A stretch of 64,000 nt of DNA from Minisyncoccota bacterium (GTDB taxonomy: Bacteria; Patescibacteriota; Minisyncoccia; Phycocordibacterales; JACRKE01), in NCBI GenBank assembly GCA_041660505.1, contig JBAZWG010000001.1, forward strand, positions 243,979 through 307,978, in the 5' to 3' direction. Position numbers and translations under genes: made by a program. Shown here piece by piece: positions 13,315 through 63,466 of the stretch (positions within the stretch are counted from its first letter, which is position 1; each line of letters begins with the position of its first letter). Under the pieces are notes generated by a model, which saw only the letters and a list, made by a program, of their open reading frames with translations, was not told the origin of the DNA and made no database searches.

Positions 13315-15402
13315 TTATGGATTCTTACCTGCCTTCACGTCTGCAATATATTGCTCGCCCTTCGTTTTGAAGTCTGGAATATTTTTTATCATATCTTGAA
13401 GAGTGGCGATAGCGAGATCGCGTTTGCCCGCCTTAAGATAGACGGCGAAGAGCAGGCGGCCAGGCTCCTCATTTTTAGGATAGAGCGCGTAAGAAGCTTT
13501 GAGAATTTCAATTGCCTTATCTAGCTGATTATTTTGCGCATACAGAGTGCCAAGATTATCTATCATCGCCTGCTTGCCGGAGGTGAGGCTTACCGCTTTC
13601 TCGAGTTGCGGGATAGCCAGCTCGAGGTGGCCGACTTGCGCATAGAACATTCCGAGGAATAATCGATAACGCGCATCGTTCGGTGTCGCATCAACCTGTG
13701 CCCGCATCTGCTTCAAAGCAAGTTCAAGGAATGCCTGTCGAGTCTTCTCATCAACTTGCTGATTCGCCCCGGTTTGGAGCGAGAGGGTCAGCAACTGTTC
13801 TCGTGCTTCGGTATTGGCTAAAGTGTTCAGCTCAAAAACTTTATTGAATGAAGCAATCTGCCGCTCTGCCGCCAATTCTCGCGATTCCGTACAAGCCAAC
13901 TTGCCGTCTGCTTGCGCAACTATTTTATCTTTAGCACAAGGACTGATAGCGTCAATAAGAGTCGCGCCAGCGGTGTAAGGCTTGATCGTCACAACATATA
14001 TCAACGGAAACATCGCAATAAATAAAATAGTTGCTACCACATAACGAAGAGTAAGATTTCTTTCATCAGAGCTTGCACTTCCGAGGTTCGACCTCTGGGA
14101 GTCCGAGGTCGAACCTCTGTGATGTTCCGCATCAAAAGTCGCAAGATAAGCGAGCAAAGTAAAGAAAAGTACAGAAGAAAGTAAATTATCGAATACAAAG
14201 AAGTTGTGAATGAAGTAGGCAGCAAGTAATCCGGTTAATACTGCGCGATCGGACACATCGCCTTCTTTACGCTTCCAGATCACAATAAGTGCAACAACAA
14301 ACAGCGACAAGTAAGCAAGTAAACCGAGAATCCCCGCAGCCGATAGCCAATCGAAAAATACATTATGCGCACGATCGAACCATTGCTCCTGGTCGAAGAG
14401 CGACGACTTATAATACTTGTTAAATACGAGATTAAAGTTATCGAGGCCCCATCCAAGTATCGGATGCTCCGCAACTCCTTCAACCGCCATACTCCAGATC
14501 GTGGTGCGCGACCGAACCGTTTGGTCACTAAGGGATACGCTCATGATACGACTGAGCGCATCGTTTGACTTAACGAACACGCTGTCTCTGGCTATGTACA
14601 ATCCGCCCCACACGAAAACAAGCAATACGAGGCTGCCGATTGTTGTCTTGCGCCAGGTACCGCCCTTTTGGATTGCGATAATCACCACCGAAAGAATAAT
14701 CCCGATAATCGTACCGTAGAAAGCACCTCGCGTTTGCGTGTAGAAAAGAATAATGAACTCAAACAACGCAATTATCCCGTAACACCAGCGCTGCCAGACA
14801 ACACCTTGCGCCTTAGTCCATAAGTACAGACAAATAAATATATGAATTAGCAGATAGACGGCCATGTATGCCGCGTTACCGAACGTGCCATCAACGCGCG
14901 GGCCACTCTGTGAACTGATGAGCGCAGAGTTACCGAGTTGTGCGAAGCCGTAAAAGGTCATCCCAATCGATGCGAGGAGTGTTGTGTGCAGCACAATGCT
15001 CCACTGCGTGCGACGCTTCTCTCCCTCCACCGCGCTCATGAGAGAGATGAGCATGATGAAGTAGGTGAATAGGTGCAGATAGGATACCAAACCTTCCATG
15101 CGCTCGAAATTAGACCAGAAACTGCGGAGCGGATTGACGCTAAAAATCGTCGAGAGAGATAGGATTACAATGAAAGCCAGCGTGGCAGAGAGTAACTGCG
15201 ATTTCTTCGGCCAATAATTCTTATCACGCGCAACGAGCAGTATCCACAAGGCAAAACAGATCTCTATGGCAAAACGAAAGAAAAATCCCTTGCCTGCAAT
15301 ATAAGGGAAAAATAAATTAGAAGATATGATAAATGGAGTCACCAACAGTGCGAACAAAAGCCCGCCGAAAATCGTATTGCGCAAATAGGTGTTGAGGTTC
15401 AT
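13315..15402 (-). CDS. O-antigen ligase/Wzy-like polytopic membrane protein with C-terminal TPR repeats
   Basis: About 10-12 predicted TM helices in the first 430 aa. The C-terminal 250 aa have TPR-like repeats (AIPQLEKAVSL...LYAQNNQLDKAIEILK...AVYLKAGKRDLAIATLQ). Confidence 0.55.
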   Translation of the reverse strand: MNLNTYLRNTIFGGLLFALLVTPFIISSNLFFPYIAGKGFFFRFAIEICFALWILLVARDKNYWPKKSQLLSATLAFIVILSLSTIFSVNPLRSFWSNFERMEGLVSYLHLFTYFIMLISLMSAVEGEKRRTQWSIVLHTTLLASIGMTFYGFAQLGNSALISSQSGPRVDGTFGNAAYMAVYLLIHIFICLYLWTKAQGVVWQRWCYGIIALFEFIILFYTQTRGAFYGTIIGIILSVVIIAIQKGGTWRKTTIGSLVLLVFVWGGLYIARDSVFVKSNDALSRIMSVSLSDQTVRSRTTIWSMAVEGVAEHPILGWGLDNFNLVFNKYYKSSLFDQEQWFDRAHNVFFDWLSAAGILGLLAYLSLFVVALIVIWKRKEGDVSDRAVLTGLLAAYFIHNFFVFDNLLSSVLFFTLLAYLATFDAEHHRGSTSDSQRSNLGSASSDERNLTLRYVVATILFIAMFPLIYVVTIKPYTAGATLIDAISPCAKDKIVAQADGKLACTESRELAAERQIASFNKVFELNTLANTEAREQLLTLSLQTGANQQVDEKTRQAFLELALKQMRAQVDATPNDARYRLFLGMFYAQVGHLELAIPQLEKAVSLTSGKQAMIDNLGTLYAQNNQLDKAIEILKASYALYPKNEEPGRLLFAVYLKAGKRDLAIATLQDMIKNIPDFKTKGEQYIADVKAGKNP

Positions 15403-55202: not shown

Positions 55203-56307
55203 GAAGAGATTCGAACAAATTGCGCATACGCATCCCTACAGACTGCCACGAATAGCCTGATTTGACCAGCTCATAACCGCCTTTACTCACATGTTCATAC
55301 AGTGCAGGATTTTGAACCAAACGTGTGACTGCTTGGGCAAAATTTTCTGGACTTTCCGGCTCGCAGAAAATACCCGTCTCGCCGTCCTTAAGAAAATCCG
55401 GGATACCGCCAACAGGTGTGCCTATAATAGGCACACCTTGTGCCATCGCCTCAAGGAATGAACTACCGAGCCCTTCTGTGCGGGACGGCCGTACGAAAAT
55501 GTCACCTTGTTTAAGATATTCTATCGCCTGCTCATACGGTACTGCTTGATCTAACGTGACTCGTCCCGCCACATCAAGCTCTTTCGCAAGTTTAATTAGA
55601 TTCTCTCGTTCAGCCCCATCGCCAACATTCTTAAATATAATATTCTCCGGCAACACTTTAAGCGCGCGTATCACGATATCAAATCCATTCTTCTTCTCGA
55701 GTCTCGAATTGGAAATCAGAATTATCTCCTGTGGAGGTCCGACCTCCGAAAAATTCGGAGGTCGGACCTCCACAGGGACTTCAACCCCATTCGGCACCAC
55801 TATCGGCATCCCGCGGAAACCCATCTGCTTGCCGAAGCTCGCTAGATAATTTGATATCGCCTGAATAGCGTCGGCTTTTTCAAAAAGCAGACGGAAGAGC
55901 GGGCGCAGAATTCCTACACGCTTCATGATGTGTTCTATCGGATCGCCCTCCTGAAGCGTGAGTAAAAGTGGCGTACGCGAGAAAAATATTTTGTACAAAA
56001 GCGCAATCCCGCCAGAGTATCCGGCCATAATAGACCAGGAAAAATCATAAGGCTGTTTGAATGTAAGTCTTACTGCTTTTAGAAATCCTCCGACAATATA
56101 GCCATATTTTGTCGGCCAGGCGATTCTGTATATCGTTATATTATTTTTGGTCTCGATACTTTGCCACTCTGTATTAAATTTCCAAGTTATCACGTCGAAG
56201 TGAATGTCGGGATTGAGCTCCATGATTTTGCGCGGCGCAATCTCCCCTCCGCTTTCGAACGGATAAAATGCCAGGGAGAATATTATTACTCTTTTCTCTG
56301 AATTCAC
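55195..56307 (-). CDS. glycosyltransferase family 4
   Basis: GT4 C-terminal motif RPSRTEGLGSSFLEAMAQGVPIIGTPVGGIPDF. Confidence 0.75.
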   Translation of the reverse strand: MNSEKRVIIFSLAFYPFESGGEIAPRKIMELNPDIHFDVITWKFNTEWQSIETKNNITIYRIAWPTKYGYIVGGFLKAVRLTFKQPYDFSWSIMAGYSGGIALLYKIFFSRTPLLLTLQEGDPIEHIMKRVGILRPLFRLLFEKADAIQAISNYLASFGKQMGFRGMPIVVPNGVEVPVEVRPPNFSEVGPPQEIILISNSRLEKKNGFDIVIRALKVLPENIIFKNVGDGAERENLIKLAKELDVAGRVTLDQAVPYEQAIEYLKQGDIFVRPSRTEGLGSSFLEAMAQGVPIIGTPVGGIPDFLKDGETGIFCEPESPENFAQAVTRLVQNPALYEHVSKGGYELVKSGYSWQSVGMRMRNLFESLHA

Positions 56308-58370
56308 GGTCTTTTGGTATTCCCGAATCGCTGCCGTTTATCATCTTCGGTCACTTGGACCGTGCGGCGGAGGACATCCTCGGGTATCTCTTTTATAACC
56401 TGTTGGAGGGGTGCATTGGTTACTTGCTGTTTTGCCGGTTCTGGGGCTTGAATTATGACTTTTGGCGGTGTAGGTGGCGGAGGCGTGGGTATAACAGGTT
56501 GCGAGATAACAGGCTTGGGCACGAAAGGCGGAGTAACTGGTTTCGGTGGCATCGGCGTCGGAAGCGGTGTTACAACAGTGCGCTTAAGAACATCTTTTTC
56601 TAAAACGTTTTTGATCGTTTTCTGTAGTTCGCTCAAATTGCTCTCGCCTTTTTCTTCAAGCTTTTTTAATACCATCGGCTTGCTGGCCTCGGGAATTTTC
56701 GGTTCATCGGGTTCGACTTCCAGCCTTAGAGCGCTCGCCAGATCACTGCTTGCCCCGGCCTTCTGAATTTTCTTTTTTATTTCTTTTATACTGTCGAACT
56801 GCGTGCTCGCCCGCGCCATACGTTGCATGAGAGAGTCAGCCGGCCGTGGTATCGACTTGTTTGCTGACGACGCAGTAGAATATGCTTGCCTCTGACCGGG
56901 TTCAGCTTCAAACTCAATACCCAAGCTTGCTAGCCCAGAGATGCCATGATTGGTGGCAAGACTAGATGATATTGGTACTGTCTGATTTGTGGCGGGTTTG
57001 GACGATTCCGTGGGGTTCGTCGGCCGAACAGACGCGGGTGTGTCTGTTTTAGGCGCCGGTTCTGCTCCGGCGGGCATCATTCCACTCCAGTCATTAATCT
57101 CTCGTTCAACCACTTCTCGCGATCGGCAGTAGCGTTTGTGCGAAGCGTCGATAATCTCATCCGCCGTACAGACCTCACCTTCAGCCTTCGCCGGGGGCAA
57201 AGTGTAGGCAGAGAATGGCCGGCTGGTAACGCCGTCTATCATGAGGCGAGTGTAAATTTGGTAGTTCGGCAAGTTAACCATGTCGGGCGCGAGGAAGTCG
57301 GGGGTGAGTTCTTTCTCGAGGAACTCTGCGTCATCGGCACCGACGCGGAATATCACCATTGTACCGGCATTACCAAATACCGCATCGCGCACCTTGGTCG
57401 AGTTATCTTCGGCTAATTGCCCGATATATTGATGCGCGATAATAAGGTCGAGACGATATTTGCGCGCCTCGGAGAGAATATCGGCAAACGAGTCGGTCGC
57501 GAAATTCTGGAACTCATCTACATACAGATAGAAGTCTTCGCGATCTTTCTCTGGTATGCGCACGCGTTCCATTGCGGATAGTTGGATCTTGGTGATAAAC
57601 ATTGAACCAAGAAGGTCGGAGTTATCTTCGCCAATGCGCCCCTTCGATACGTTAAGCAAGATTATCTTGCGCTCATTCATCATGTCGTAGAGGTTGATAG
57701 TGCTCTTCTTCTGGCCGACTATATTTCTGACGAGAGAAGTAGACAAGAATTGCCCGACTTTATTCTGAATTGGCGCAATCGCCTCACTGCGGAACTTCTC
57801 TTGCCAGTTCTCGTATTCGTTAATCCAGAATGTCAGCACCACCGGGTCTTTAATATTCGCCACAATCCTCTGACGATAATTTTTGTCTACCAAAAGTCGC
57901 GGAATGCCGAGTAGCGTCGAACCCGGCGTATCGAGAAGCGCCAAGACGCAGTTGTTCATTATATATTCCATTCTCGCCGACCAGACGTTAGCCCAGATCT
58001 TCGTGAAGATTCCCATAAGACCTGATGCGATTAAATGTTTCTTCTCCGGATCGTCGAGCTCGAGCACGTTGAAGCCGGTGTGGAAGGCCGGATCGGCCGG
58101 ATTAATGTAGACAACATCATTCAAGCGATGTTTGGGAATTTGGGCGAGCAAGCCCTCCACGAATTCTCCGTGCGGGTCGACGACGCAAAGCCCCGCGCCA
58201 TTGCGAATGTCTTGGACGGCCAAATTATTTAAAAGCACCGTCTTGCCGGTACCCGACTTGCCGATAATATAAAAATGCTGTCGGCGGTCTTTGTGTTTAA
58301 TACCGAAACGCACGCGCTTGTCGCGATGATTAGTCTCGGCGAAATAGGTTACTCGATTGTCCTCTAGCAT
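56304..58370 (-). CDS. soluble VirD4/TrwB/TraD-like (type IV coupling protein-like) P-loop ATPase with a Pro-rich C-terminal tail
   Basis: Walker A HFYIIGKSGTGKTVLL followed by VVDPHGEF (compare TrwB GATGTGKS...VDPNGD). Walker B FYLYVDEFQNF and a downstream AHQ motif. No N-terminal TM segment. The start is set at ATG 58370, and the listed ORF starts at GTG 58430 inside the palindrome. Confidence 0.6.
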   Translation of the reverse strand: MLEDNRVTYFAETNHRDKRVRFGIKHKDRRQHFYIIGKSGTGKTVLLNNLAVQDIRNGAGLCVVDPHGEFVEGLLAQIPKHRLNDVVYINPADPAFHTGFNVLELDDPEKKHLIASGLMGIFTKIWANVWSARMEYIMNNCVLALLDTPGSTLLGIPRLLVDKNYRQRIVANIKDPVVLTFWINEYENWQEKFRSEAIAPIQNKVGQFLSTSLVRNIVGQKKSTINLYDMMNERKIILLNVSKGRIGEDNSDLLGSMFITKIQLSAMERVRIPEKDREDFYLYVDEFQNFATDSFADILSEARKYRLDLIIAHQYIGQLAEDNSTKVRDAVFGNAGTMVIFRVGADDAEFLEKELTPDFLAPDMVNLPNYQIYTRLMIDGVTSRPFSAYTLPPAKAEGEVCTADEIIDASHKRYCRSREVVEREINDWSGMMPAGAEPAPKTDTPASVRPTNPTESSKPATNQTVPISSSLATNHGISGLASLGIEFEAEPGQRQAYSTASSANKSIPRPADSLMQRMARASTQFDSIKEIKKKIQKAGASSDLASALRLEVEPDEPKIPEASKPMVLKKLEEKGESNLSELQKTIKNVLEKDVLKRTVVTPLPTPMPPKPVTPPFVPKPVISQPVIPTPPPPTPPKVIIQAPEPAKQQVTNAPLQQVIKEIPEDVLRRTVQVTEDDKRQRFGNTKRP

Positions 58371-58416
58371 GAGTATAATTCTAGCATAAAATCGTGAATG
58401 CTTGTATAATATTGCC

Positions 58417-58430
58417 GTGCATATATGCAC
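58417..58430. promoter_or_regulatory. perfect 14-bp palindrome GTGCATATATGCAC between divergent paralogous ATPase genes (candidate operator), flanked by TATAAT-like -10 boxes
   Basis: The sequence is its own reverse complement. TGTATAAT lies at about 58403-58410 on the plus strand, and TATAAT-like hexamers on the minus strand at about 58436-58450. Confidence 0.5.
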
Positions 58431-59930
58431 AGATATTATCAGATATTATATTGTATGGAAGTTGGGAAAATTCAAAAGATACGTTATACCCCGCCACCGG
58501 CCGAGCTTGCTACGCCCGATAATACCGAGCTCCAAAATTTGACCTGCCTCGGCAAAACGAATTACGTCGTGGCGATGGACGACCGGCGCTATATCTTTGG
58601 CATCAAGCGTATGGACCGCACGCGCCATATGTACGTCATCGGCAAGTCCGGCGTCGGTAAGTCTAAACTCTTGGAAATCATGATCCGCCAAGATATCGCC
58701 CACGGCGACGGCCTCTGCCTTATGGACCCGCACGGCGATGTCATCGAGGACGTGCTTGAGTTCATTCCGGAAGACCGTATAGACGATGTTGTCATCATCG
58801 ACCCATCAGATACCGCCTTCCCGGCATCATTCAACCCATTAGTCGGCGTTGAGGCCGATCTCAAACATCAGCTCGCTCAAGGTCTTATCGAGGTGATGCA
58901 AAAACAGTTCGGTGCCAACTGGACACCGCGCTTAGAGCACGTCTTCCGCTTCACCGTTCTTGCTCTCCTCGACTATCCGTACGCCACGATGCGCGGGATG
59001 CTTATGATGCTAACCGACCGCAACTACCGCCAGAAGGTGGTCGAGTATATTCAGCATGATGTGGTGAAAAGATTCTGGGCAATCGAATTCGCCGACTGGT
59101 CGGAGAAGTTCGATACCGATGCCATCATTCCGCTAGTCAATAAGCTTGGACAGTTTCTTTCAAATCCGCTCCTCGGTAATATCTTCGGCCAGCAGAAGAA
59201 CTTAATCGACTTCGAAGCGCTGATGAACAGCAAGAAATTAATTTTCATCAACTTGTCCAAGGGCCGCTTGGGTGAAGAAAACTCTTCGTTCTTCGGCTCA
59301 ATGCTCATCACCAAGATCAAGCAAGCCGGTATGGCGCGCGCCAAGATGTCTCGCTCGGCCCGCCAAGACTTCTACTTATATGTAGACGAGTTCCAGACCG
59401 TCGTCACCGACACTTTTGAAAATATCTTATCAGAGTCTCGTAAATATGGACTTTGTCTTATTGTCGCGCACCAGTACGTCGCCCAACTCTCGCCCAAAAT
59501 CCAGCAAGCGGTGCGCGGTAACTCCGGCACAATAGTCACCTTCCGCGTCGGCGGTGATGATGCCGAGTCGCTCAAGGCCGAGATGGCCCCGCTCATCGAG
59601 CCGAAGGACCTCATCAACTTGGGCCTCCGCGAGTTCTATATCAAGATGACCATCGACGGCGAGACCTACGACCCGTTCTCGGCTGAAACTTTGAAAGTTT
59701 TGCCCCCGCTTCACGAGTCGTATAAAGACCGCATCATCGCCGCCTCGCGCTCAAAATACAATATCCCGGTAGAGCTTGCCGAGCAATTAGTCCGCGAAGA
59801 AGACGAGAATTTGAAGATGAATAAAGGCCCATCGAACAACGGCGCCGGCGCGACCACTACGGCAACCCTCACCTCATCACCAGCGCAAGCCCCAGGCACG
59901 GGCGACAGCTCTCCCGAACCGCTTATATAA
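58425..59930 (+). CDS. soluble VirD4/TrwB/TraD-like P-loop ATPase (paralog of the gene at 56304-58370)
   Basis: Walker A HMYVIGKSGVGKSKLL followed by LMDPHGDV, Walker B FYLYVDEFQTV and the AHQ motif. Alternative start at ATG 58455 (MEVGKIQ). Confidence 0.6.
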   Translation: MHRYYQILYCMEVGKIQKIRYTPPPAELATPDNTELQNLTCLGKTNYVVAMDDRRYIFGIKRMDRTRHMYVIGKSGVGKSKLLEIMIRQDIAHGDGLCLMDPHGDVIEDVLEFIPEDRIDDVVIIDPSDTAFPASFNPLVGVEADLKHQLAQGLIEVMQKQFGANWTPRLEHVFRFTVLALLDYPYATMRGMLMMLTDRNYRQKVVEYIQHDVVKRFWAIEFADWSEKFDTDAIIPLVNKLGQFLSNPLLGNIFGQQKNLIDFEALMNSKKLIFINLSKGRLGEENSSFFGSMLITKIKQAGMARAKMSRSARQDFYLYVDEFQTVVTDTFENILSESRKYGLCLIVAHQYVAQLSPKIQQAVRGNSGTIVTFRVGGDDAESLKAEMAPLIEPKDLINLGLREFYIKMTIDGETYDPFSAETLKVLPPLHESYKDRIIAASRSKYNIPVELAEQLVREEDENLKMNKGPSNNGAGATTTATLTSSPAQAPGTGDSSPEPLI

Positions 59931-59986: not shown

Positions 59987-61723
59987 ATGCCCAGCAAAAC
60001 CCCCAAATTCGATTCTGCGCTTGATGCCATTTTCGCCACCTTGGCGCCTCACGAACGCGTTTGCAAACAGTGTAATCTTTCGTTCCAAATAGAGGCCGAG
60101 GATATCGAATTTTTGAAGAAATTAAGAGTCCCGCCACCGACTCTCTGCCCGCGGTGCAGGCTACAGCGACGTATGGCATCACGCATACGGTTGCGCCCGG
60201 TGTTTTATAAAAAATCATGTGCAGCGCCCGGCCACAGCGAGAAGATAGTTTCATTTCTTGATGAAGATAATCCTGTGCCAGTCTATGATGATGCATATTA
60301 TCGGAGCGATGCTTGGGACCCGTTCAGTTTCGCCACCACCTACGATGCGAGCGTGCCGTTCTTTAAAAAGTTCGCCGAATTCGCCGCCAACTTCCCCCAT
60401 CAGACTGCCAACAAGGATGTCCAAAGTATCAACTGCGACTTCGTTGTTTCGGGCGTACAGGCCAAGAATTGCTACTACGTCGCCGTGCCGTACCTTTCGG
60501 AAAATTTACAATATGGCCACCTCGGGGTGAACTCAAAAGATTGCCTCGAATTCTTGAGTATTGATAGTGTGGAAAATTCCTACCATTCGGTGCGCGGCCT
60601 TCGTTCCTATAACTGCCTCTTCTGCGTTGACTCTGCTGACTGCGTTGATTCATCATTCTTGTTCGACTGTAAAAATTGCATGAACTGCTTTATGAGCAGC
60701 AATCTCCGCAATGCTAAATATGTTTGGAAGAATGAACAGTTGAGCAAAGAGGTATACGAAAAAAGGCTTTTGGACGTTGATCTCGGCAGTTATACAGTAC
60801 TGGAGACATATCGCCGAAAGTTCGAAGAACTGTGCAAAAAAGCGATTCACAAGAATCTGGATATTTTGAAATCGGAAAATTGCGTCGGTAACAATCTGCG
60901 CAATTGCAAAAATTGCATCAACACATATGAATGTTTCGGGGGCGGAGAAAATATCAAAAACGTTATGAGCTCGCTCAAAGTCACGGATTCACTAGATACT
61001 TACGGCAGTACAGACACATCCCTCGCCTATGATTGTGCCGGGACCCCTGTTTGTATTAAATGTAAATTTTCTTTGCTTATCCGCACTGGCCTCGAGGTGG
61101 AATATTCGGTTGAATGCATTAACGTGGAATTCTGTTTTGCCTGTTTCGGTCTGCGAGGAAAAAAGTTCTGTATTTTCAACAAACAATACGATGAAAATGA
61201 GTATTGGGAGAAAGTCGACGCGATTAAAACAGCGATGCTTGCTCGCGGCGAATATGGCGAGTTCTTCTCTATTGCCGACAGCCCATTCCCATACAATGAC
61301 AGTGATGCACAGCTCGAATTCCCTCTTACAAGAGATGAAGTATCGGCGCGAGGCTGGAAGTGGCACGATAAAAAAGAAAATCCTGTTGACCTTTCAGGGT
61401 TGAACGTCATCAAAGCCGCCGACCTGCCGGACAATATACGAGATGTTACCGATGACATTCTGCACAAGGCAGTCTTGTGCATGGAGACCGGCCGGCCGTT
61501 CCGCCTTACGCCGTACGAGCTTGCCTTCTACCGCCAGCACAATCTTCCGCTTCCGCGTCTTCATCCCGACGTGCGCATCAATAAGCTTTTCGAATTCCGT
61601 ATCCCCTATCACCTCTATACAGACACCTGTAAAAAGTGCGGCAAATCAATCCAATCTGGCTATGATCCGGATAAAGGATATACTGTCTACTGCGAACAGT
61701 GTTATCAGCAAGAAGTTGTTTAA
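59987..61723 (+). CDS. Cys-rich protein with N- and C-terminal zinc ribbons and internal CxxCxxC repeats (family unknown)
   Basis: 578 aa. N-terminal CKQCN...PPPTLCPRCR. Internal CKNCMNCF, CKNCINTYEC and CIKCKF motifs. C-terminal CKKCGK...YCEQCYQQEVV. Confidence 0.5.
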   Translation: MPSKTPKFDSALDAIFATLAPHERVCKQCNLSFQIEAEDIEFLKKLRVPPPTLCPRCRLQRRMASRIRLRPVFYKKSCAAPGHSEKIVSFLDEDNPVPVYDDAYYRSDAWDPFSFATTYDASVPFFKKFAEFAANFPHQTANKDVQSINCDFVVSGVQAKNCYYVAVPYLSENLQYGHLGVNSKDCLEFLSIDSVENSYHSVRGLRSYNCLFCVDSADCVDSSFLFDCKNCMNCFMSSNLRNAKYVWKNEQLSKEVYEKRLLDVDLGSYTVLETYRRKFEELCKKAIHKNLDILKSENCVGNNLRNCKNCINTYECFGGGENIKNVMSSLKVTDSLDTYGSTDTSLAYDCAGTPVCIKCKFSLLIRTGLEVEYSVECINVEFCFACFGLRGKKFCIFNKQYDENEYWEKVDAIKTAMLARGEYGEFFSIADSPFPYNDSDAQLEFPLTRDEVSARGWKWHDKKENPVDLSGLNVIKAADLPDNIRDVTDDILHKAVLCMETGRPFRLTPYELAFYRQHNLPLPRLHPDVRINKLFEFRIPYHLYTDTCKKCGKSIQSGYDPDKGYTVYCEQCYQQEVV

Positions 61724-61756
61724 ATAGAGAGTTCAACTCTCTATTATAAGGCTAAA

Positions 61757-63466
61757 ATGGAAACTAGAACCTGCCAGAATTGTAACGAGAACTTCGTCAT
61801 CGAGCCGGAAGACTTTGAGTTTTACGAAAAAATAAAAGTTCCGCCCCCGACTTGGTGCCCGGAGTGCCGGCGGTGGCGGCGCATGTTCTTTCAGAACGAG
61901 CGCGGGATTCGTAAAACTTCATGTGCGCTTTGCGGCCAAACGACACTCTCAATGTTCAACGACAAAGTACCGCATGTTGCCTACTGCCATAGCTGCTGGT
62001 GGGGAGATAAATGGGATGCGCTAAACTTCGGTCGTGATTACGACGACAAGGTTTCTTTTTGGAATCAATTTTTTGAACTCTTCCGCACCACGCCAACTCC
62101 GGCGGTGAGTAACGAAAATCCAATCAACAGTGACTACGTCAATCACACCTCTAACGCCAAAAACTGTTATCTGATTTTCTTTTCTGGCACACCACTACCC
62201 AATGAAGACTGCTACTACTCTTATCGCATAGACGGTTGCCGGGGCTGTATCGACACGGCTTATACCACCCAGAGCGAAGACTGTTACGAATTGATGGACG
62301 GCACCAAGTGTAATAAGGTGCAATTCGGGAGATATGTCGAAGAAACTTTCGACAGCATGTTCCTGGACGACTGCAAGAACTGTTCCGACTGCTTCGGCTG
62401 TTCCAAATTAAGAAACAGGAATCACTGCATATATAATGAGCAATACAGCAAGGCGGATTATGAACGCGAGCGCAGTAAGATAGATTTGGGCAGTTATGCC
62501 AATTTAGAAAATTTTAAAATGGCTTTCGCCGAGTTTAATGCTAAAACGCCCAAGCGCTTCGCCAATATAATTAAATCCGAAAATTGTACCGGCGACAACA
62601 TAACCGGCTGCAAAAATTGCAGGGATTGTTATGTCATAAAAAATTCAGAGGATTCCCGCTTCGCCGAGATGTGCCCAGGCGGAGTACGCGATTGTTACGA
62701 TCTCCGCATTGCCCGTGGCGAACAGCTTTATGAAGACTTCGCGGTACTCCGGTCATCAAATGTCTACTTCAGTGTGATCTGTCTAGACAGTAAGAATGTC
62801 CAGTATTCTTATTTTATGATTAACTGTTCAGATTGTTTCGGCTGTGTCGGACTAAAGAATAAGCAATTCTGTATCTTGAATAAGCAATATGCCGAAGAAG
62901 AATATCGCTCATTGTTGCCGAGAATCATCGCCAACATGAACGGTTTGCCCTATACTGGCAAAAACGGCGCAGTATATAAATATGGTGAATTCTTCCCTCT
63001 CGATGAAAGCCCCTATCTATATTACGACACCCCGGCGAACGAAGTTTTGCCTTTATCAAAAGAAGAGGTTATCTTGCGCGGTTTAAATCTGGACGATGAG
63101 CTCTCGCGGAATTATAAAGTAACGGTGGCAAAGGGTAATATCCCCGACCACATTCGCGATGTCCCCGACTCTATCACTAACGAAATTCTAGAGTGCGCTC
63201 ACAAGGGTCAATGTCTGCACAGGTGCGCCACCGCCTTCCGCATCACCCCGTTCGAATTGGCTTATTATAAAAAATTCAATCTCGCTCTGCCCACAATTTG
63301 CAGTAACTGCCGCCACTACGAGAGAATTAAATCAAGAAACCCTTTAAAGCTCTGGCACAGAAAGTGTATGAATGTTGGATGTCAAAACGAGTTTGAAACG
63401 TCATATTCTCCCGACCGCCCGGAGATTATCTATTGTGAATCTTGTTATCAACAAGAAGTAGTATAA
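61757..63466 (+). CDS. Cys-rich protein, tandem paralog of the gene at 59987-61723
   Basis: 569 aa. N-terminal CQNCN...PPPTWCPECR. Internal CKNCSDCFGC, CKNCRDCY and CSDCFGCVGLKN motifs. C-terminal CSNCRHY...YCESCYQQEVV. Confidence 0.5.
   Translation: METRTCQNCNENFVIEPEDFEFYEKIKVPPPTWCPECRRWRRMFFQNERGIRKTSCALCGQTTLSMFNDKVPHVAYCHSCWWGDKWDALNFGRDYDDKVSFWNQFFELFRTTPTPAVSNENPINSDYVNHTSNAKNCYLIFFSGTPLPNEDCYYSYRIDGCRGCIDTAYTTQSEDCYELMDGTKCNKVQFGRYVEETFDSMFLDDCKNCSDCFGCSKLRNRNHCIYNEQYSKADYERERSKIDLGSYANLENFKMAFAEFNAKTPKRFANIIKSENCTGDNITGCKNCRDCYVIKNSEDSRFAEMCPGGVRDCYDLRIARGEQLYEDFAVLRSSNVYFSVICLDSKNVQYSYFMINCSDCFGCVGLKNKQFCILNKQYAEEEYRSLLPRIIANMNGLPYTGKNGAVYKYGEFFPLDESPYLYYDTPANEVLPLSKEEVILRGLNLDDELSRNYKVTVAKGNIPDHIRDVPDSITNEILECAHKGQCLHRCATAFRITPFELAYYKKFNLALPTICSNCRHYERIKSRNPLKLWHRKCMNVGCQNEFETSYSPDRPEIIYCESCYQQEVV

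What the first reader, a model, noticed from the sequence alone, without database searches (positions are those of the whole stretch)
59987..63466. Tandem paralogous Cys-rich proteins (about 570 aa) with terminal Zn-ribbons and an identical C-terminal tail, next to the T4CP-like ATPases
Both proteins begin with a Zn-ribbon (CxxC...VPPPT[LW]CP[RE]CR). Each contains about 10 internal C-x2-C or C-x2-C-x2-C units (CKNCMNCF, CKNCINTYEC, CKNCSDCFGC, CKNCRDCY, CSDCFGCVGLKN). Both end with a second Zn-ribbon followed by the identical tail Y-C-E-[QS]-C-Y-Q-Q-E-V-V. No signal peptide is present and no known family is recognised. Their position immediately downstream of a T4CP-like ATPase gene suggests a hypothesis. 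The invariant tail could be a recognition signal for a coupling-protein-type ATPase. Alternatively, the proteins could be metal-rich scaffolds or nucleic-acid-binding partners in an undescribed system.
Basis: inference. Interest (0 to 1): 0.65.

Follow-up and report, generated by a model that had tools for sequence, protein, structure and literature searches.

The report
Cysteine-rich zinc proteins beside orphan ATPases
The two genes belong to a very large, uncharacterised protein family found only in ultra-small Patescibacteria (CPR); the family sits in tandem arrays next to "orphan" conjugation-type ATPases whose role in these bacteria is an open question.

Summary
ORFs A (59987-61723, 578 aa) and B (61757-63466, 569 aa) are full-length paralogues (34% identity, E 2e-98) with 5-7% cysteine. 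They follow a VirD4/TraD-like ATPase gene.

They are not a local oddity. The family has about 5,700 clusters at 50% identity, all in Patescibacteria and all unnamed. It is absent from phage and plasmid collections.

The architecture is [two Zn ribbons]-[solenoid half]-[solenoid half]-[two Zn ribbons], and both pairs are internal duplications. AlphaFold models are confident (pTM 0.9) but have no PDB neighbour.

Genes form co-directional arrays of 2-8 ancient paralogues, interleaved with two transmembrane-less T4CP-like ATPase types. 25 of 32 T4CP1-seeded loci of at least 10 kb carry the family.

The "identical tail" is family-wide and is part of the zinc-ribbon fold. It matches an internal segment of the N-terminal module, so it is not evidently a secretion signal.

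Best reading (inferred): non-enzymatic metal-stabilised partners (adaptors or clients) of the orphan ATPases.

Function remains untested. Exported cargo, independent metalloprotein and defence sensor remain rivals.

The parts
59987..61723 (+). Paralogue A (578 aa), the A-type family member. It has an extra N-terminal helix, and the ligands of inner Zn ribbons 2 and 3 are mostly lost (only C78 and C498 kept).
60011..60316 (+). A, N-terminal di-zinc-ribbon module (aa 9-110). It consists of a zf_Tbcl-type ribbon (C26/C29/C54/C57), an Arg-rich helix, and a degenerate CxxC-x17-CxxC ribbon.
   Evidence: hhalign N module vs C module: probability 99.7%, E 1.3e-26; Pfam PF13451 E 0.053; conservation
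60395..60778 (+). A, solenoid half S1 (aa 137-264). It has a cysteine ladder in strict 3-residue register and ends in C228-x2-C231-x2-C234 followed by the ...NLRN..Y...N..Y..E.Y motif.
   Evidence: hhalign S1 vs S2: probability 99.9%, E 1e-34; Cys autocorrelation; AF2 model
60845..61225 (+). A, solenoid half S2 (aa 287-413), homologous to S1. Its end cap holds C377, C383, C386 and C395.
61451..61720 (+). A, C-terminal di-zinc-ribbon module (aa 489-578). It consists of a degenerate zf_Tbcl-like ribbon (C498) with a basic helix (R530, R534) and a CxxC-x17-CxxC ribbon (C548/C551/C569/C572). It ends in Y-Q-Q-E-V-V-COOH.
61757..63466 (+). Paralogue B (569 aa), the B-type, which is the majority type. 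All four Zn ribbons are intact: C6/9/34/37; C56/59/77/80 (CxxC-x17-CxxC); C480 with C515/518; C537/542/560/563.
58425..59930 (+). T4CP1-type VirD4/TraD-like ATPase (501 aa). Walker A is GKSGVGKS, there is no transmembrane segment, and the conserved C-terminus is ...EPLI-COOH. It is the first gene of the apparent T4CP1-A-B operon (gaps of 56 and 33 nt).
   Evidence: Pfam TrwB_AAD_bind 4e-10 and TraG-D_C; phrog_5156 4e-54; no TM; tail
56304..58430 (-). T4CP2-type VirD4/TraD-like ATPase (708 aa), divergently oriented. It has no transmembrane segment and a long Pro/Thr-rich C-terminal extension. It is 46% identical to T4CP1 over the ATPase region.

Best explanation
**What is shown.**
- A and B are two members of a very large, Patescibacteria-restricted family of soluble ~575-aa cysteine-rich metalloproteins.
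- Each protein is a double solenoid (two homologous halves with an internal cysteine ladder). It is capped at both ends by the same two-zinc-ribbon module (zf_Tbcl-type ribbon plus CxxC-x17-CxxC ribbon).
- The genes sit in co-directional, operon-like arrays of ancient paralogues.
- The arrays are interleaved with two types of transmembrane-less VirD4/TraD-like hexameric-ATPase genes. In many genomes these ATPases are preceded by two small membrane proteins.

**What is inferred.**
- The family members are non-enzymatic, metal-stabilised partners of these 'orphan' ATPases. Each paralogue would act as a specificity adaptor or as a client.
- Engagement would be through the conserved basic surface of the C-terminal ribbon module. 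The conserved acidic ...E-P-L-I-COOH tail of the T4CP1-type ATPase is a candidate docking peptide.
- The ATPase would then remodel or translocate the bound protein or nucleic acid.
For: **Family size and restriction.**
- Searches with A and B found 1139 and 5496 homologues. A profile search found 5745 clusters at 50% identity.
- At least 573 GTDB species genomes encode a relative, nearly all labelled as CPR.
- There is no match in phages or plasmids, and only one fragment in 2.9 million viral contigs.

**Architecture.**
- Internal duplications are supported by hhalign: N vs C module 99.7%, E 1e-26; S1 vs S2 99.9%, E 1e-34.
- Zinc-ligand cysteines are 95-99% conserved.
- A CxxC-x17-CxxC domain was shown experimentally to bind Zn in M. 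mazei proteins (PMC12704099).
- AF2 models have pLDDT 86 and 88 and pTM 0.90 and 0.89.

**Not an enzyme.** Nearly all conserved core residues recur at offset 149 in both halves (D188/D337, Y199/Y348, L240/L389, N249/N398, Y257/Y406), which indicates structural repeats.

**Arrays.**
- 201 genes occur in 80 loci, with up to 8 per 20 kb.
- All 85 adjacent pairs are co-directional, with a median gap of 13 nt.
- 154 of 159 members have their closest relative in another species.

**ATPase link.**
- The ATPase is the only strongly recurrent neighbour (34 genes in 24 of 80 loci).
- 21 of 34 are directly adjacent to a family gene, and 33 of 34 are on the same strand.
- Adjacency is 21 observed against 7.6 expected, P about 3e-5.
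- In the reverse test, 25 of 32 T4CP1-seeded loci of at least 10 kb carry the family.
- The arrangement T4CP2-F-(F)-T4CP1-(F-F) recurs.

**Solubility and candidate docking elements.**
- ATPases are soluble: 88 of 90 have no TM-like segment before Walker A.
- 45 of 46 T4CP1 orthologues end in [EQD]P[LMIV][IVL] after an acidic stretch.
- The family's ZnR3 region has a median net charge of +6.

**Literature.** 5,713 VirD4-like T4CPs were found in Patescibacteria, only 148 near virB4, and the authors raise exaptation (PMC12102498).
Against: - No physical interaction, metal content or activity has been measured. The partnership rests on gene order only.
- Only about 45% of family-seeded loci of at least 20 kb contain an ATPase (14 of 31), so many arrays lie away from it.
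- A related T4CP2-like clade has essentially no family gene nearby (1 of 14 loci of at least 10 kb), so the ATPase can work without an adjacent family member.
- Some shared synteny may be inherited rather than selected, because the loci come from related lineages.
- The proposed docking pair (acidic EPLI tail and basic ZnR3 patch) is pure inference.
- The overall pI is mildly acidic (median 6.2), which does not favour a general nucleic-acid-binding protein.
Confidence: 0.45

Rival explanations
1. **Exported cargo.** The paralogues are substrates (effectors) recruited by the T4CP-like ATPases. They would be delivered through the Patescibacteria MPF-FATA-type T4SS, or another envelope channel, into the host cell. 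The analogy is tandem Bep effector genes next to virD4 in Bartonella (from my own knowledge).
For: - No signal peptide or TM segment.
- Multi-paralogue arrays lie directly beside T4CP-like genes.
- The C-terminus is strictly fixed.
- Many loci encode two membrane proteins (X and c4) just upstream of T4CP1.
- There is precedent for a TMD-less T4CP anchored by a separate small TM protein: TraJ and TraI of pIP501 (PMC12857230).
- The T4SS is widespread in Patescibacteria and lacks known substrates and relaxases (PMC12102498).
Against: - The tail is part of the ribbon fold and is homologous to an internal segment.
- Paralogues are ancient, of near-constant length and under strong conservation across classes. 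This is unlike typical fast-evolving, lineage-specific effectors.
- Up to four zinc ribbons plus a solenoid would resist the unfolding that T4SS transit needs (established knowledge).
- No VirB4 or channel gene was recognised in the window annotation or among the recurrent neighbour clusters of the 160 fetched loci.
- Only 148 of 5,713 T4CPs lie near virB4.
Confidence: 0.2
2. **Independent metalloprotein.** The proteins are Zn- or Fe-S-binding redox, metal-storage or structural (filament-forming solenoid) proteins. Their function would not involve the ATPase, and the synteny would reflect inherited gene order or co-regulation.
For: - Cysteine content is 5-7%, in a strict 3-residue register.
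- A conserved C-x2-C-x2-C motif occurs with distal conserved cysteines, and conservation is complementary between the two halves.
- Lower model confidence in S1 (pLDDT 55-79) is compatible with a missing cofactor.
- More than half of family-seeded loci show no ATPase within 10 kb.
Against: - There is no match to any Fe-S, radical SAM or ferredoxin family, even at E<1.
- The ATPase is the only strongly enriched neighbour, is almost always co-directional and sits at operon-like gaps.
- The other neighbours are unrelated housekeeping genes.
Confidence: 0.17
3. **Defence or conflict system.** Diversified paralogues would act as sensors, and a HerA/mad8-like ATPase as the motor or scaffold.
For: - The ATPases hit PADLOC mad8 (E 5e-13 and 2e-13) and HerA models weakly.
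- Several paralogues per ATPase resembles sensor diversification.
- wHTH regulators (TrmB, PaaX-like) are occasionally interleaved.
Against: - The family has no PADLOC hit.
- No nuclease, toxin or effector domain is present in the family or among recurrent neighbours.
- Paralogues are ancient orthogroups, not rapidly diversifying.
- The loci lie among housekeeping genes, not in variable islands.
- The family is nearly universal across species rather than patchy.
Confidence: 0.08
4. **Mobile-element or phage-derived cargo.** The array would be selfish DNA.
For: - The ATPases match phage family phrog_5156 strongly (E 4e-54 to 5e-58).
- They have distant homologues in Bacillus jumbo phages.
Against: - The family is absent from 50,697 phage records and 72,556 plasmid records, and essentially absent from 2.9 million viral contigs.
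- No integrase, transposase or repeats were recognised among recurrent neighbours.
- Base composition is not distinctive.
Confidence: 0.03

Closest known systems
Treble-clef / zinc-ribbon domains zf_Tbcl (PF13451), zf_Tbcl_2 (PF23477) and TIGR04272 CxxC-x17-CxxC
   Same: - The terminal modules carry exactly these motifs.
- The CxxC-x17-CxxC spacing is exact in A ribbon 4 and B ribbon 2.
- 25 of 60 and 16 of 60 members hit the two Pfam models.
- Zinc binding by this domain type has been shown experimentally in M. mazei small proteins (PMC12704099).
   Different: - The known domains are about 40-aa stand-alone or repeated units of unknown function.
- Here they occur as a fixed pair, duplicated at both ends of a 280-aa unmatched core.
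- A and B themselves score below the curated thresholds.
Type IV coupling proteins (VirD4/TraD/TrwB) with their substrates and accessory proteins
   Same: - The neighbouring ATPases match TrwB_AAD_bind, T4SS-DNA_transf and TraG-D_C above Pfam thresholds.
- A conserved C-terminal tail after an acidic stretch recalls the TraD tail that binds TraM (from my own knowledge).
- Cargo genes next to the T4CP recall Bartonella bep arrays (from my own knowledge).
   Different: - There is no N-terminal transmembrane domain.
- They are not near virB4 or a relaxase.
- They pair or fuse with a distinct ~400-aa X domain shared with phrog_5156.
- The partner family resembles no known T4SS substrate or relaxosome protein.
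Narrow cysteine-ladder beta-solenoids and left-handed beta-helices (Tenebrio antifreeze protein; hexapeptide-repeat LbH enzymes)
   Same: - The core is a repetitive coil with cysteines in strict register and rung spacings of 9 or 12.
- The only weak sequence or fold hits to the core are TmAFP (E 2.1) and LbH proteins (Foldseek E 1-8).
   Different: - None of these hits is significant.
- TmAFP is secreted and disulfide-bonded, whereas this family is cytoplasmic in anaerobe-type bacteria.
- There is no hexapeptide-repeat Pfam match and no acyltransferase or carbonic-anhydrase residues.
HerA-type ATPase plus partner modules (HerA-NurA; HerA-Sir2/DUF4297 defence; MADS mad8)
   Same: - The motor is a FtsK/HerA-superfamily ATPase encoded in an operon with non-ATPase partner proteins.
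- There are weak PADLOC HerA and mad8 hits.
   Different: - The partner has no nuclease or Sir2-type effector domain.
- Several ancient paralogous partners accompany each ATPase.
- The context is housekeeping chromosome rather than a defence island.

Membership tests
zf_Tbcl_2 / TIGR04272 (CxxC-x17-CxxC zinc finger) | Two CxxC pairs separated by 17 residues | tested here: met
   A: C548-x2-C551-x17-C569-x2-C572. B ribbon 2: C56-x2-C59-x17-C77-x2-C80. Read from the sequence.
zf_Tbcl_2 / TIGR04272 (CxxC-x17-CxxC zinc finger) | HMM score at or above the curated cut-off | tested here: not met
   A scores PF23477 25.8 bits against a cut-off of 27, and TIGR04272 23.1 bits against 36. B has no hit. 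25 of 60 relatives hit PF23477 at E<0.01.
zf_Tbcl_2 / TIGR04272 (CxxC-x17-CxxC zinc finger) | Binds one Zn ion through the four cysteines | not testable with these tools
   Shown only for M. mazei small proteins by ICP-MS (PMC12704099).
zf_Tbcl (PF13451) | HMM score at or above the gathering threshold (24 bits) | tested here: not met
   A scores 13.9 bits and B 16.2 bits. 16 of 60 relatives match at E<0.01. The motif C..C...F.I...D..FY.K..VP.P..CP.CR is present.
Canonical T4CP (VirD4/TraD/TrwB), for the neighbouring ATPases | FtsK/HerA-type nucleotide-binding domain with Walker A/B plus the all-alpha domain | tested here: met
   TrwB_AAD_bind scores 39.5 and 49.2 bits (cut-off 20.5); TraG-D_C and T4SS-DNA_transf are also above cut-off. 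Invariant GKSGxGKS and DEF motifs are present.
Canonical T4CP (VirD4/TraD/TrwB), for the neighbouring ATPases | N-terminal transmembrane domain anchoring the hexamer to the membrane | tested here: not met
   Maximum KD19 is 1.11 and 1.21. 88 of 90 homologues have no TM-like segment before Walker A.
Canonical T4CP (VirD4/TraD/TrwB), for the neighbouring ATPases | Encoded with a T4SS channel (virB4) and/or a relaxase | tested here: not met
   None was found in the annotated large ORFs of window region 28-56 kb (plus one at 13-15 kb) or among recurrent neighbours of 160 loci. The literature reports 148 of 5,713 near virB4.
T4SS substrate / effector, for A and B | C-terminal translocation signal recognised by the T4CP | tested here: inconclusive
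   The C-terminus is fixed in 553 of 567 members. However, it is part of the ribbon fold and homologous to an internal N-module segment. Recognition itself is not testable here.
T4SS substrate / effector, for A and B | T4CP- and T4SS-dependent export | not testable with these tools
   Needs secretion assays in a CPR-host co-culture.
Fe-S proteins (ferredoxin-type 4Fe-4S, radical SAM) | CX2CX2CX3CP or CX3CX2C motif with a matching family HMM | tested here: not met
   The motif here is C-x2-C-x2-C-x2-C. There is no Fer4 or Radical_SAM hit even at E<1 or among 60 relatives.
Left-handed beta-helix (hexapeptide repeat) proteins | Hexapeptide-repeat HMM match and a significant fold match | tested here: not met
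Known anti-phage defence proteins (PADLOC) | Match to a PADLOC model | tested here: not met
   A and B have 0 families. Only the ATPases hit mad8 and HerA.

The most novel reading that the evidence does not exclude
The arrays, the two soluble VirD4-like ATPases and the membrane proteins X and c4 together form a previously unknown, Patescibacteria-specific translocation machine. Its paralogous zinc-capped, cysteine-ladder solenoid proteins would be the exported cargo, or the carriers of nucleic acid, delivered to host cells. This would make them the main effector repertoire of episymbiotic Paceibacteria and Peribacteria, and it would explain the thousands of 'orphan' T4CPs in the phylum.
Probability: 0.15. 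Interest if true: 0.9.

Novelty: categorically new. Interest (0 to 1): 0.68.

Why it matters
**Genome investment.** Patescibacteria have tiny genomes (under 1 Mb), yet many devote several ~1.7-kb genes to this one unannotated family. Up to 8 copies occur within 20 kb. The paralogues have been kept for a very long time, which argues for an important lineage-specific function.

**An open question becomes testable.**
- A 2025 survey found 5,713 VirD4-like coupling proteins in the phylum, almost all away from the T4SS. It could only suggest that they were exapted (PMC12102498).
- The conserved linkage shown here gives those orphan ATPases a concrete candidate partner.
- Pull-downs, AF-multimer, metal analysis and genetics in the few cultivable strains can now address the question directly.

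**Structure.** The core appears to be a confidently predicted fold with no PDB neighbour and an unusual cytoplasmic cysteine ladder. That makes it interesting for structural and metallo-biochemistry.

Tried and rejected
**Searches that gave nothing useful.**
- Sequence family searches of A and B in Pfam, NCBIfam, PHROGs and PADLOC gave nothing for the core.
- A profile search against PDB sequences gave only LIM-like noise on the last ribbon (E 0.01) and TmAFP at E 2.1.
- Foldseek against PDB for both models, and against BFVD for A, gave nothing below E 0.01.
- The source-contig look-up beyond the window end returned only a 3.9-kb Logan contig. The JGI 527-aa product was not on record, so copy number per genome is unknown.
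- Six literature probes found no description of the family or of its ATPase link. The Lipocone paper was irrelevant.
- The promoter and terminator scan was no better than shuffles.

**Ideas rejected.**
- Phage or plasmid origin: there are no matches.
- Recent lineage-specific expansion: 154 of 159 members have their closest relative in another species.
- The tail as a pair-specific feature: it is family-wide and part of the fold.
- Enzyme with a unique active site: conserved residues recur in both repeats.
- General basic nucleic-acid binder: median pI is 6.2, with only one basic patch.

Full report
**1. The observation**

ORF listing confirms two adjacent same-strand ORFs at exactly the stated coordinates. 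A is 59987..61723 (578 aa) and B is 61757..63466 (569 aa), separated by 33 nt.
- They align over their full length at 34% identity, E 2e-98.
- Cysteine makes up 5.4% of A and 6.9% of B. The median for 52 other ORFs of the window is 1.1% and the maximum 3.6%.
- Both start and end with CxxC...CxxC ribbons and both end in YCE[QS]CYQQEVV.
- Neither has a hydrophobic segment.
- The gene 56 nt upstream (58425..59930) matches T4CP families (TrwB_AAD_bind, TraG-D_C). So does a second, divergent gene at 56304..58430.
- Two corrections apply. The number of internal CxxC units is 6 in A and 8 in B, not about 10. B has four zinc ribbons rather than two.

**2. Where it comes from and how big the family is**

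A is identical to a 'hypothetical protein' of a Candidatus Paceibacterota MAG on a 719-kb contig.
- Searches with A and B return 1139 and 5496 homologues.
- A profile search of 1.84 billion representatives finds 5745 clusters at 50% identity, 2414 of them at E<=1e-30. The best 150 are all 498-612 aa and matched end to end.
- Every named hit is from Patescibacteria/CPR, including Paceibacterota and Nomura-, Giovannoni-, Lipton-, Yanofsky-, Staskawicz-, Gribaldo-, Falkow-, Peregrini- and Peribacteria. Names are 'hypothetical' or 'zinc-ribbon domain' only.
- The family is absent from 50,697 phage records and 72,556 plasmid records.
- It has a single marginal fragment in 2.9 million viral contigs.

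**3. Anatomy**

No library recognises the core. Pfam, NCBIfam, PHROGs and PADLOC give nothing for A or B. Pfam gives nothing for the core of 60 diverse members. Only the terminal ribbons hit zf_Tbcl (16 of 60) and zf_Tbcl_2 (25 of 60).

Profile-profile comparison of sub-alignments of a 567-sequence alignment shows two internal duplications:
- The N-terminal module (A 9-105) is homologous to the C-terminal module (A 489-573): probability 99.7%, E 1.3e-26.
- Solenoid half S1 (137-264) is homologous to S2 (287-413): probability 99.9%, E 1e-34.

The architecture is therefore [ZnR1 (zf_Tbcl) + ZnR2 (CxxC-x17-CxxC)] - S1 - S2 - [ZnR3 (zf_Tbcl-like) + ZnR4 (CxxC-x17-CxxC)].
- Ligands of ZnR1 and ZnR4 are 95-99% conserved.
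- ZnR2 is complete in about 31% of members and ZnR3 in about 57%.
- B has both inner ribbons. A has lost them except C78 and C498.

In the solenoid halves, cysteines occur only at spacings that are multiples of three. Autocorrelation is positive at lags 3, 6..., 30 and negative at all other lags, with the strongest peaks at 3, 9 and 12.

Each half ends in C-x2-C-x2-C-x2-C-x8-C. Conservation is complementary between the halves:

| Cap position | S1 residue | S2 residue | Conservation S1 / S2 |
|---|---|---|---|
| a | 228 | 377 | .90 / .80 |
| b | 231 | 380 | .89 / .45 |
| c | 234 | 383 | .96 / .47 |
| d | 237 | 386 | .76 / .97 |
| e | 246 | 395 | .43 / .87 |

Almost all other highly conserved core residues recur at offset 149 in both halves (D188/D337, Y199/Y348, L240/L389, N249/N398, Y257/Y406). 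This points to repeat structure rather than a single active site.

AlphaFold2 models with about 90-sequence alignments are confident. A has pLDDT 86.1 and pTM 0.90. B has pLDDT 87.8 and pTM 0.89. Both show the same layout, and S1 is the least confident part.

**4. The tail**

553 of 567 members stop exactly six residues after the last CxxC, with consensus C-E-x-C-Y-x-x-E-V-[YVAIL]-COOH. The tail is therefore family-wide.
- It lies inside the zf_Tbcl_2 / TIGR04272 model, which matches up to residue 575-576.
- Column by column it corresponds to an internal conserved segment of the N-terminal module: V99/V567, Y100/Y568, [D/C]101/C569, [Y/C]104/C572, W105/Y573, D108/E576, W110/phi578.
- Its conservation is thus explained by the ribbon module's fold.
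- A role for the free carboxy-terminus is possible, because almost no member extends beyond it, but the data do not require one.

**5. Genomic organisation**

In 80 loci from GTDB species genomes (+-10 kb), tblastn and ORF clustering find 201 family genes.
- Locus counts by copy number (1, 2, 3, 4, 5, 6, 7, 8 copies) are 29, 17, 14, 13, 2, 2, 2 and 1. Many loci are truncated.
- All 85 adjacent family pairs are co-directional, with a median gap of 13 nt.
- The paralogues are old. For 154 of 159 array members the closest relative is in another species.
- Intra-array identity has a median of 40%, and 1 of 216 pairs exceeds 60%.

The only strongly recurrent neighbour is the T4CP-like ATPase, with 34 genes in 24 loci.
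- 21 of 34 are directly adjacent to a family gene and 29 of 34 lie within two genes. 33 of 34 are on the same strand.
- Adjacency is 21 observed against 7.6 expected within these loci, binomial P about 3e-5.
- Other recurrent neighbours are housekeeping genes (ABC ATPase, DnaK/DnaJ, MurD, S9, L9, L21, CysRS, RecR, CutA1) or wHTH regulators (TrmB, PaaX-like).

The reverse test used 80 metagenome loci seeded on the ATPase:

| Seed clade | Loci >=10 kb | With a family gene |
|---|---|---|
| T4CP1-type | 32 | 25 |
| More distant T4CP2-like clade | 14 | 1 |

In the distant clade, the conserved neighbour is instead a Sigma70_r4 + HARE-HTH protein. A frequent order is T4CP2 - F - (F) - T4CP1 - (F - F). 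In the window, T4CP2 is inverted and T4CP1-A-B follow.

**6. The ATPases are not canonical coupling proteins**

- They have Walker motifs and the all-alpha domain.
- They have no transmembrane domain: 88 of 90 lack any TM-like segment before Walker A.
- No VirB4, channel or relaxase gene was found in the annotated large ORFs of window region 28-56 kb. That stretch is an envelope-glycan cluster.
- None was found among recurrent neighbours of the 160 loci either.
- In at least 12 loci T4CP1 is preceded by two membrane proteins. These are X (~450 aa, 1-2 TM helices) and c4 (~170 aa, one TM helix plus a helical domain with an R-x4-H motif).
- X is homologous to the N-terminal domain fused to the ATPase in Peribacteria (E 9e-15). 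The fused form matches phage family phrog_5156 (E 6e-69).
- T4CP1 orthologues end in [EQD]-P-[LMIV]-[IVL]-COOH in 45 of 46 cases, after an acidic stretch. T4CP2 types never do.
- The literature states that Patescibacteria encode 5,713 VirD4-like T4CPs, only 148 of them near virB4, and that exaptation cannot be ruled out (PMC12102498).
- A TMD-less T4CP anchored by a separate small TM protein has precedent in TraJ/TraI of pIP501 (PMC12857230).

**7. Interpretation**

Shown:
- A huge, CPR-restricted, uncharacterised family.
- A duplicated ribbon-capped double-solenoid architecture.
- Ancient paralogue arrays.
- Conserved operon-like linkage with soluble VirD4-like ATPases.

Inferred (confidence 0.45):
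- The proteins are non-enzymatic, metal-stabilised partners (specificity adaptors or clients) of these ATPases.
- A concrete but untested docking hypothesis pairs the one strongly basic patch of the family (ZnR3 region, median net +6) with the acidic ...EPLI tail of T4CP1.

Rivals:
- Exported T4CP-dependent cargo (0.20).
- ATPase-independent Zn or Fe-S metalloprotein or filament (0.17).
- Defence sensor set (0.08).
- Mobile-element cargo (0.03, largely refuted).

**8. Limits**

- All functional statements rest on gene order, conservation and predicted structure.
- The 160 loci are the best-scoring subsets, not random samples, and related lineages are not independent.
- Per-genome copy number, and genome-level co-occurrence with VirB4, X and c4, could not be computed.
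- Literature coverage is limited to the open-access library searched.

**9. Verdict**

- The core matches no known family or fold with the tools available.
- The gene-cluster type appears undescribed.
- It bears directly on an open question, the role of orphan T4CPs in Patescibacteria.

Noticed in passing
L087:8047-10002 (also L083, L086, L089, L093, L104, L119, L121, L124, L137); not present in the window: A conserved co-directional operon lies upstream of T4CP1. Its order is Sigma70_r4+HARE-HTH protein, then X (~450 aa, N-terminal TM helices, no Pfam match), then c4 (~170 aa, TM helix plus a helical domain with 'AHRLRNxLVHTP', an R-x4-H HEPN-like motif seen by eye), then T4CP1, then family genes. 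X is fused to the ATPase in Peribacteria (L056:6295-8535; BLASTP E 9e-15).
   Followed up: partly
window 59919-59930 (C-terminus of T4CP1) and 46 orthologues in fetched loci: T4CP1-type ATPases end in [EQD]-P-[LMIV]-[IVL]-COOH in 45 of 46 cases, after an acidic low-complexity stretch. T4CP2-type ATPases never do. This may be a partner-docking peptide.
   Followed up: partly
window 56304-57080 (-): T4CP2 carries a ~250-aa Pro/Thr/Ser-rich, apparently disordered C-terminal extension that T4CP1 lacks.
   Followed up: no
window 61757-61882: The JGI gene call for B (P0121, 527 aa) starts about 42 codons downstream of the ORF start. That call would delete the conserved first zinc ribbon (C6/C9/C34/C37), so the 569-aa start is the better call.
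   Followed up: partly
window ~28500-56300, mostly minus strand: A large envelope-glycan biosynthesis cluster occupies this stretch. It includes several GT1/GT2/GT4 glycosyltransferases, three PMT_2-type mannosyltransferases, GtrA-like, a DegT aminotransferase, an epimerase, UDP-glucose dehydrogenase-like and two FAD amine-oxidase-like proteins. A Wzy_C O-antigen-ligase/TPR protein lies at 13315-15402.
   Followed up: partly
L136-L161 (e.g. L140, L141, L149, L155, L161): A T4CP2-like clade (54-59% identity to window T4CP2) has no Cys-rich family gene within 10 kb. It is consistently preceded by the Sigma70_r4+HARE-HTH protein. The ATPase therefore has a wider distribution and another recurrent partner.
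   Followed up: partly
L077:14281-15051 and 6 other Peribacteria-type loci; L068:7245-7763: TrmB-family wHTH regulators (11 genes in 7 loci, 14 adjacencies to family genes) are interleaved in the arrays of some lineages. PaaX_M-type proteins are too.
   Followed up: partly
L037 (JAMPXW010000002.1, 268 kb) and L048: These contigs are labelled Burkholderiales and Gammaproteobacteria. They carry four family genes plus T4CP1 and T4CP2 (L037), or one family gene (L048). Mis-binned or mislabelled CPR contigs seem more likely than true occurrences outside CPR.
   Followed up: no
T4CP-seeded loci, e.g. L123:11535-12623, L094:1624-3531: DnaK and DnaJ genes recur near the T4CP1/family cluster: DnaJ in 12 loci, and a DnaK-sized cluster in 10 ATPase-seeded loci and 8 family-seeded loci. 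This could be inherited synteny or a chaperone link; the two were not distinguished.
   Followed up: no
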